A stretch of 64,000 nucleotides of DNA, taken from positions 90,644,001 through 90,708,000 of the forward strand of contig OZ024746.1 of assembly GCA_964016885.1 (NCBI GenBank), read 5' to 3'. The notes below the pieces were generated by a model. The model was not told where the DNA came from. It made no database searches and saw only the letters and a list, made by a program, of their open reading frames with translations. This document shows, in pieces, positions 21,479-21,977 of the stretch. The translations under genes and the position numbers were made by a program. This DNA is from Eledone cirrhosa (taxonomy: Eukaryota). Each line of letters opens with the position of its first letter. Position 1 is the stretch's first letter.

Positions 21479-21627
21479 CATATATATATATATATATATA
21501 TGTAGGAGGTGAGTTTTATTGTAGTACAATAAAGCAATGCAGATATCGGATAAGAAGCACTCTACAGTTTGTAGGACTGGAGTATACATAATATATAAGA
21601 TCAAAAGATGGTTAAAAGAGTTCCATG

Positions 21628-21698
21628 TATTTTATTATGCGCATTTCAAAAACAAATATCATCATGCAATAACATTTGTGTTTTCATCAGATAAAATA
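21628..21698 (-). ncRNA. Minimal type-I hammerhead ribozyme motif
   Basis: TATTTTAT-CTGATGA-stem II-GAAA-TGCGC-ATA-ATAAAATA; perfect 8-bp stem I and palindromic stem III ATGCGCAT. Confidence 0.85.
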
Positions 21699-21804
21699 GG
21701 AAGACATGATATGAAGGTTAGAAAACACTTGTGAATAGTGCAGATATGTTGATTTAAAACTGCACTATTCACAAGTGTTTTTTAACCTTCATATCATGTC
21801 TTCC

Positions 21805-21875
21805 TATTTTATCTGATGAAAACACAAATGTTATTGCATGATGATATTTGTTTTTGAAATGTGCATAATAAAATA
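21805..21875 (+). ncRNA. Minimal type-I hammerhead ribozyme motif (mirror copy)
   Basis: CTGATGA 21813-21819, GAAA 21856-21859, ATA 21865-21867, stem I TATTTTAT/ATAAAATA. Confidence 0.8.
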
Positions 21876-21905
21876 CATGGAACACTTTTAACCATCTTTT
21901 GATCT

Positions 21906-21977
<72 letters not shown>

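What the first reader, a model, noticed from the sequence alone, without database searches (positions are those of the whole stretch)
21588..21915. 156-bp-arm palindrome placing a well-formed hammerhead on each strand
The arms differ at only three positions seen and are separated by 16 nt. Each arm has a perfect 8-bp stem I, a long stem II and an AUA triplet; the minus copy has a self-complementary stem III (ATGCGCAT) suited to dimeric folding. Transcription in either direction gives a long hairpin containing a ribozyme and its antisense, which could be a switch between dsRNA (ADAR/Dicer substrate) and self-cleavage (inference).
Basis: partly seen in the sequence, partly recalled or inferred. 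Interest (0 to 1): 0.75.

Follow-up and report, generated by a model that had tools for sequence, protein, structure and literature searches.

The report
Back-to-back Hydra Penelope retroelement ends
The mirror-image DNA with a hammerhead self-cutting RNA motif on each strand is real, but it is one of likely thousands of short back-to-back insertions left by a very abundant Penelope-type jumping gene, a layout already described, and its arrangement would block the ribozyme rather than switch it.

Summary
The palindrome is real: 156-nt arms, 3 mismatches, 16 nt between, and a type I hammerhead motif in each arm. It is not a unique device. Each arm is the end repeat (pLTR) of a Hydra-clade-like Penelope retrotransposon: 14,746 exact copies of the ribozyme core, and an intact 800-aa RT + GIY-YIG ORF in a sister copy. 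It sits in (TA)n. The 'spacer' is the element's first 16 nt. In 50 head-to-head pairs, 45 have one tailed and one tail-less arm, partner arms share a haplotype, and thousands of copies begin at one site, often after an extra G. Likely mechanism: both nicked target strands copy the same capped, uncut RNA from two fixed start points, and the two cDNA ends are joined. In read-through RNA the antisense arm is always made first, so the ribozyme would be locked in a hairpin (-257 kcal/mol), not switched. No RNA data. The layout is published (Arkhipova 2013; Cervera 2014; Craig 2021), and this scan found it before on other DNA, including this genome.

The parts
21479..21501 (.). (TA)n target tract, left side
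   Evidence: sequence
21502..21587 (-). 86-nt 'tail' (family positions 173-258), on the minus arm only; in 5' pLTRs it runs on into the leader of the ORF
21588..21743 (-). pLTR arm, family positions 17-172 (5'-truncated by 16 nt; with the tail it is the long-end 'B' arm)
21628..21698 (-). type I hammerhead motif with self-complementary stem III; predicted cut between 21636 and 21635
   Evidence: cleavage untested
21743..21743 (+). junction G: both the last base of the minus arm and the extra G seen before position 1 in 2,111 copies (likely cap-derived; 1-nt overlap)
   Evidence: cap origin inferred
21744..21759 (+). 'spacer' = first 16 nt of the pLTR, starting at the fixed 5' site (likely transcription start)
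21760..21915 (+). pLTR arm, family positions 17-172 (short-end 'A' arm, no tail)
21805..21875 (+). type I hammerhead motif; stem III has a C>T change at a CpG; predicted cut after 21867
   Evidence: cleavage untested
21916..21969 (.). (TA)n target tract, right side
   Evidence: sequence
21219..21478 (.). adjacent, separate insertion with the same layout from another Hydra-like family (arms 21293-21382 and 21389-21478, tail 21219-21292), no canonical hammerhead core

Best explanation
This is a short head-to-head insertion of two end repeats (pLTRs) of an abundant Hydra-type Penelope-like retrotransposon in a (TA)n tract, likely made in one event in which both nicked target strands primed copies of the same uncut, capped element RNA. 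Shown: repeat identity; the linked RT + GIY-YIG ORF; (TA)n flanks; one tailed and one tail-less arm in most pairs; a shared haplotype within pairs; a fixed 5' site with excess G; no excess of ends at the ribozyme cut. Inferred: the endonuclease nicks both strands of (TA)n. One 3'-OH primes at the AT-rich site near position 172 and the other at the tail end near 258. One cDNA ran off the RNA's 5' end and gained a C opposite the cap; the other stopped at position 17. The two cDNA 3' ends were joined through a 1-nt overlap and repaired into an inverted repeat. The two hammerheads are passengers. Read-through RNA would be a locked hairpin. Only an RNA starting at 21744 would expose a ribozyme, and it would need a partner for stem III.
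For: Repeat: 947 candidates, with the 51 listed matches at 94-100%; 14,746 exact hits to the 23-nt ribozyme core. ORF link: of 25 loci picked by the endonuclease region, 23 show the arm about 0.9 kb downstream; intact 800-aa ORF in L121 with DKT, CxCx5C, CxxC..E..N..CxH. Sample by position (60 of the 65 groups formed by the first 100 core hits; 114 arms, 50 head-to-head pairs): 45 of 50 are tail + no tail. Of the 5 others, 2 partners are internal 5' pLTRs running into the ORF, 1 is interrupted and 2 are truly symmetric. Both arms at the 5' site 14, both with upstream body 14, mixed 0, other 22. Arm-to-arm difference 0.85% within pairs against 5.2% between (38 vs 5,100 comparisons); identical at 12 marker sites in 26 of 31; 6 private changes are shared by both arms. 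Fixed 5' site: base before it C 6,885, G 2,111, A/T 2,151, and only 4,396 continue into the body. G is 50% of non-C against about 22% expected from a partner arm, and 0 of the first 100 body-continuing copies have G. Each arm here holds sequence the other lacks (1-16 vs 173-258). In 9 of 28 bodiless pairs the tail-less arm reaches further 5', in 5 the tailed one, in 14 both reach the start. 7 junctions are loopless 4-nt overlaps that one strand cannot form by folding back. Literature: PAc nicks and extends both strands, starts at two sites bounding the tail, and uses uncut RNA (PMC11167929).
Against: No RNA data: start site, cap, template strand and cleavage are all inferred. Arm similarity could partly come from later gene conversion within the palindrome. 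14 of 114 arms had no partner in the fetched stretch (10 with body), so mixed pairs with bodies over 3 kb could be missed. The sample is the first 41 Mb of one contig and needs an exact core match. 2 of 50 pairs are symmetric. No TSD can be read in (TA)n. Pfam gave no hit for the ORF and no tree against named Hydra sequences was built. No read spanning this locus's own junction was shown.
Confidence: 0.7

Rival explanations
1. Same element, but the inverted copy comes from self-priming (fold-back), either of one cDNA or on an antisense RNA followed by endonuclease resolution, as proposed for Adineta Penelope (PMC3846280).
For: The layout is head-to-head; arms are near-identical within pairs; position 1 sits in a short self-complementary word; the model is in print.
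Against: Fold-back of one cDNA cannot give each arm unique sequence (this locus; 9 of 28 bodiless pairs). Loopless 4-nt overlaps and the G excess at a fixed site fit two cDNAs running off a capped sense RNA. The antisense-template version is not fully excluded.
Confidence: 0.2
2. One reading: a functional switch between dsRNA (ADAR/Dicer substrate) and self-cleavage at this locus.
For: Both motifs are intact. The hairpin is very stable. Octopus and lizard Penelope are heavily hyper-edited in PMC5625713 (passages).
Against: About 2,800 similar pairs by extrapolation, and 3 more such palindromes of other families in this window. The antisense arm always comes first. Minimal PLE hammerheads do not cut as monomers (PMC4209133). 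Stem III of the plus arm has decayed at a CpG. No A>G excess among rare changes (0.15 per site, against T>C 0.27 and G>A 0.48).
Confidence: 0.04
3. Assembly artefact (fold-back chimera) at this locus.
For: No read or contig spanning this exact junction was shown.
Against: The arms differ at 3 sites and in both ends, and the flanks are not mirrored. Raw short reads of another data set show opposite-strand joints at position 1 of the family (77-98 reads from 1-3 read starts each).
Confidence: 0.03

Closest known systems
Hydra clade of C-terminal EN+ Penelope-like elements (Craig et al. 2021, PMC8557442; Hydra-1_Obim of Octopus bimaculoides is listed in its File S1)
   Same: Single ORF with RT and C-terminal GIY-YIG; DKT; CxCx5C linker; CxxC and CxH around E and N; no CCHH; (TA)n target; canonical hammerhead; inverted 5'-truncated copy; tail at one end.
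   Different: RW(I/T) instead of RWK; unit about 3.9 kb (L127) rather than under 3 kb; tail 86 nt rather than 30-40; ORF starts about 85 nt past the tail. Hydra-1_Obim is listed as 'no pLTR', 2,507 bp; its sequence was not compared.
Inverted-pLTR Penelope insertions of Adineta vaga (PMC3846280) and opposite-strand hammerhead pairs of Schistosoma Cercyon (PMC4209133)
   Same: Head-to-head pLTRs with a tail on one of them; two hammerheads 100-700 bp apart on opposite strands; palindromic stem III.
   Different: Here the bodiless two-pLTR form is a major class with a fixed 5' site and an extra G; stem I (8 bp) and stem II (about 15 bp) are longer than in min-HHRs.
Poseidon PAc of Anolis, in vitro (PMC11167929)
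   Same: Both-strand nicking and extension, two RT start sites bounding the tail, AT-rich target, uncut RNA as template, all matching the genomic pattern here.
   Different: Another clade; in PAc the ORF starts inside the ribozyme and the two sites are 30-40 nt apart. The parts I read do not link the two sites to the two arms of an inverted pair.
Non-LTR retrozymes (PMC7229834, listing only; bioRxiv 10.64898/2026.07.22.740005, part 1)
   Same: Short non-coding units with a type I hammerhead, derived from PLE pLTRs.
   Different: Retrozymes are direct tandem arrays; this is an inverted pair.

Membership tests
EN+ Penelope-like element | Single ORF with RT and GIY-YIG endonuclease joined to the repeat | tested here: met
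   800-aa ORF in L121 with FDIASYY, GIYRDD and IYEC..YFG; the arm follows the ORF in 23 of 25 loci. Motifs read by eye; no Pfam hit. This locus has no ORF.
EN+ Penelope-like element | pLTR: direct repeat before and after the ORF | tested here: met
   L056, L127, L128
EN+ Penelope-like element | Inverted 5'-truncated copy and tail at one end | tested here: met
   45 of 50 pairs and this locus
Hydra clade | DKT instead of DKG | tested here: met
   residue 123
Hydra clade | CxCx5C linker; CxxC and CxH around E and N; no CCHH | tested here: met
   CNCRIKNKC 659, CNLCLNE 759, INRRT 777, CLH 787; only one Cys (682) inside the GIY-YIG core
Hydra clade | N-terminal RWK motif | tested here: inconclusive
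   RLRWT / RLRWI: RW present, K not
Hydra clade | (TA)n insertion and canonical hammerhead | tested here: met
Hydra clade | Generally short (<3 kb) | tested here: not met
   start-to-start 3,940 nt in one tandem copy, L127; the paper gives this as a tendency
Hydra clade | Placement in the RT tree with named Hydra families | not tested
Type I hammerhead ribozyme | Core CUGANGA / GAAA / NUH with stems I and II | tested here: met
   core nearly invariant in about 100 arms (part of the core was the search key); sister families keep the core with other stem II sequences; below Rfam's cut-off
Type I hammerhead ribozyme | Self-cleavage | not testable with these tools
   indirect: no excess of copies beginning at the cut (162 against 121 and 80 at two control sites)
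Non-LTR retrozyme | Direct tandem array of hammerhead units | tested here: not met
   19 of 19 close neighbours (<300 bp) among the first 100 hits are divergent pairs

The most novel reading that the evidence does not exclude
The thousands of short palindromes are a fossil record of the unsolved Penelope integration step: one RNP copies the same capped sense RNA twice, once from each nicked strand and from a different fixed start on each, and joins the two cDNA ends. That would explain the inverted copy and the one-sided tail together, rule out antisense self-priming, map the element's start site from DNA alone, and show that the ribozyme-cut RNA is not the template in this family.
Probability: 0.6. 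Interest if true: 0.5.

Novelty: new member of a known kind. Interest (0 to 1): 0.2.

Why it matters
As a locus it is ordinary retroelement debris. As a family it offers counts that bear on an open question: how Penelope-like elements make inverted repeats with one tail (named as unsolved in PMC8557442, section 15). It also supplies an intact 800-aa ORF with defined RNA ends for an in vitro test. The palindromes could be a large source of perfect dsRNA in an animal group known for heavy A-to-I editing; that was not tested here.

Tried and rejected
Rfam at the gathering score: no hammerhead, only two tRNA-like hits. Pfam on three ORF pieces and four relatives: nothing. PDB sequence search: nothing significant. 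First guess of the Neptune clade dropped once DKT, CxCx5C and the missing CCHH matched Hydra. Sequencing runs: no RNA holder listed, so expression, editing and small RNAs are untested. Run X19 had no reads on the stretch. Ribozyme-cut template: 162 copies have a non-A before the cut-site product, against 121 and 80 at control sites. Of 25 inspected by eye, 9 are true truncations, 15 are point or 1-3 nt changes and 1 is a replacement; three -/+ pairs among the first 100 overlap near the cut, so a small class is not excluded, and the control hits were not classified. Fossil A-to-I marks: no A>G excess in 114 arms. G as a subfamily allele: rejected, 0 of 100 body-continuing copies. Host-gene context was not determined; the ORF list shows only LINE-like fragments and simple repeats. 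Literature searches for a both-strand, non-templated-G account of the inverted copy found none; the library lacks most subscription papers.

Full report
Observation. The inverted repeat is as described: arms 21588-21743 and 21760-21915, three mismatches, 16 nt between. Each arm holds a type I hammerhead motif: 8-bp stem I, CUGAUGA, a 36-nt stem II, GAAA, an 8-nt stem III region and an AUA triplet. Stem III cannot close stably within one molecule. It self-pairs between two molecules at -10.5 (minus arm), -6.0 (plus arm) or -8.6 kcal/mol (mixed). The ribozyme fold scores -8.1 kcal/mol against -256.8 for the full hairpin. Rfam did not score it, and one arm alone folds no better than shuffles.

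What it is. The arm is a high-copy repeat: 947 candidates and 14,746 exact matches to a 23-nt core in a 3.0-Gb genome. The host is likely an octopod, judged from the names of two protein relatives. Following copies upstream leads through about 0.9 kb of 3' UTR into an ORF. Of 25 loci picked by the endonuclease region, 23 show the arm downstream. [quoted passage not shown] It has DKT, a CxCx5C linker, CxxC..E..N..CxH and no CCHH. These are the marks of the Hydra clade in PMC8557442 (section 11), whose File S1 lists Hydra-1_Obim from Octopus bimaculoides. RWK is only partly met, the unit is about 3.9 kb, and no tree was built, so I call it Hydra-type. Direct copies of the arm before and after the ORF (L056, L127, L128) make it the pLTR.

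Anatomy at this locus. Numbering from the fixed 5' site, the plus copy is positions 1-172 (21744-21915) and the minus copy is 17-258 (21743-21502). The 'spacer' is positions 1-16. The minus copy carries the 86-nt tail. Both ends run into (TA)n. At the three mismatches one arm or the other departs from the family majority, one of them at a CpG, as expected of later mutation.

How common. Among the first 100 core matches, 19 neighbour pairs lie within 300 bp and all 19 are divergent (-/+); 13 more divergent pairs lie within 6 kb. Scaled up, that is about 2,800 short two-hammerhead palindromes (extrapolation from 43 Mb). This window holds three more palindromes with unequal ends, from other families (21219-21478, 45120-45300, 55497-55945), plus a partial one. 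Raw short reads from another data set show opposite-strand joints at position 1 and loose (TA)n ends at 172-177 and 258-260. So the layout exists outside this assembly, although no read spanning this very junction was shown.

Mechanism: what the copies show. I fetched 60 of the 65 groups formed by those 100 matches: 114 arms, 50 head-to-head pairs, 14 unpaired arms. (a) 45 of 50 pairs have one arm ending near 172 and the other near 258. Of the rest, L128 and L145 pair with an internal 5' pLTR, L122 is interrupted, and L171 and L172 are symmetric. The binomial test on 45 of 49 (L122 dropped) gives p 8e-10. (b) Both arms start at position 1 in 14 pairs, both have upstream body in 14, none is mixed, and 22 have a truncated arm. 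Ten unpaired arms with body could hide mixed pairs beyond 3 kb. (c) Arms differ by 0.85% within pairs and 5.2% between. They match at 12 marker sites (chosen by eye) in 26 of 31 pairs, and 6 changes private to an insertion stand in both arms, against 33 in one arm. (d) Genome-wide, the base before position 1 is C in 6,885, G in 2,111 and A/T in 2,151 exact matches, while only 4,396 continue into the body. About 60% therefore begin at or within four bases of this site. G makes up half of the non-C cases, against about 22% expected from a partner arm, and never appears in the first 100 body-continuing copies. (e) No matching peak lies at the ribozyme cut: 162 against 121 and 80 at control sites, and 9 of 25 inspected are true truncations.

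Reading. Point (d) fits reverse transcriptase running off a capped sense RNA and adding C (cap-dependent C addition is recalled knowledge, not from a call). Point (a) fits two fixed start sites, one per nicked strand. PAc of Anolis nicks and extends both strands, starts at two sites bounding the tail and uses uncut RNA (PMC11167929, parts 1-2). Points (b) and (c) suggest that both copies come from the same stretch of the same RNA, or from sister RNAs, though gene conversion could add to the likeness. Fold-back of a single cDNA fails here because each arm has sequence the other lacks, and 7 junctions in the sample are loopless 4-nt overlaps. The antisense self-priming model of PMC3846280 (passages) is disfavoured but not excluded.

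The switch idea. The arms point outward, so read-through RNA in either direction meets the antisense arm first and the ribozyme second; the 156-bp duplex would form as the ribozyme emerges. Minimal PLE hammerheads did not cut as monomers (PMC4209133, parts 1-2). An RNA starting at 21744 would escape the hairpin but lacks a stem III partner in cis. The hairpin is a plausible ADAR target: octopus is strongly hyper-edited and lizard Penelope is heavily edited (PMC5625713, passages). No RNA run was listed, and genomic copies show no A>G excess.

Novelty. Opposite-strand hammerhead pairs 100-700 bp apart (PMC4209133), inverted truncated pLTRs with one tail (PMC3846280, PMC8557442 passages and sections 11 and 15), and octopus Hydra elements are in print. 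Searches for a published both-strand account of the inverted copy found none; subscription papers and supplements other than File S1 were not seen. This scan's earlier notes describe the same kind of insertion and much the same mechanism on other DNA, in this genome and others. They are unchecked AI notes and are not counted as support; none matched this sequence by short words. Papers seen: PMC11167929 parts 1-2 of 4; PMC4209133 parts 1-2 of 4; bioRxiv 10.64898/2026.07.22.740005 part 1 of 5; PMC8557442 passages, sections 11 and 15 and supplement rows; PMC3846280 and PMC5625713 passages; PMC7229834 listing only.

Verdict. Observation confirmed, switch unlikely. New member of a known kind; interest 0.2.

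Noticed in passing
window 21219-21478: A second tailed palindrome directly beside the finding, from another Hydra-like family (1,489 candidates; linked ORF pieces with CNC..C, CDLC, CKH). Where the hammerhead core would lie it reads CAGAAGA..GAAA with no NUH, so this family may lack a canonical ribozyme or carry it elsewhere, although Hydra is said to have one universally.
   Followed up: partly
window 55497-55945 and 54936-55192: Perfect 181-nt-arm palindrome of a sister family with a hammerhead on each strand and a tail on one arm; a second, lopsided insertion of the same family lies 300 nt upstream.
   Followed up: partly
window 5776-6005: Single hammerhead-bearing arm of a third related family; same stem I and core, different stem II.
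   Followed up: partly
window 45120-45300: Near-loopless palindrome whose arms start just before a CTGATGA core (stem II short, GAAA, then AGTT), with one arm extended; likely another Penelope family.
   Followed up: no
window 45790-46150: About 140-nt inverted arms with a 40-nt unlike centre between (TA)n tracts; no hammerhead found by my scan.
   Followed up: no
L121:1100-1200: An intact 800-aa ORF whose leader is joined to the inverted arm through a long A run; a candidate young copy without a 5' pLTR.
   Followed up: partly
L120, L130, L143, L175 (junctions): Centres with a few extra bases between two complete arms (self-complementary CATG, or CC/GG), as if each cDNA gained C or CC before joining.
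   Followed up: partly
window 4376-4433, 37863-37920: tRNA-like heads of a SINE (Rfam tRNA hits at the threshold); many RTE-type LINE fragments elsewhere in the window (type recalled, not tested).
   Followed up: no
window 19172-20433, 23533-24286: Minisatellites of about 53 and 48 nt near the finding.
   Followed up: no
L140:1-1769 minus strand: Helitron-like helicase fragments beside a 5' pLTR (label recalled from motifs, not tested).
   Followed up: no
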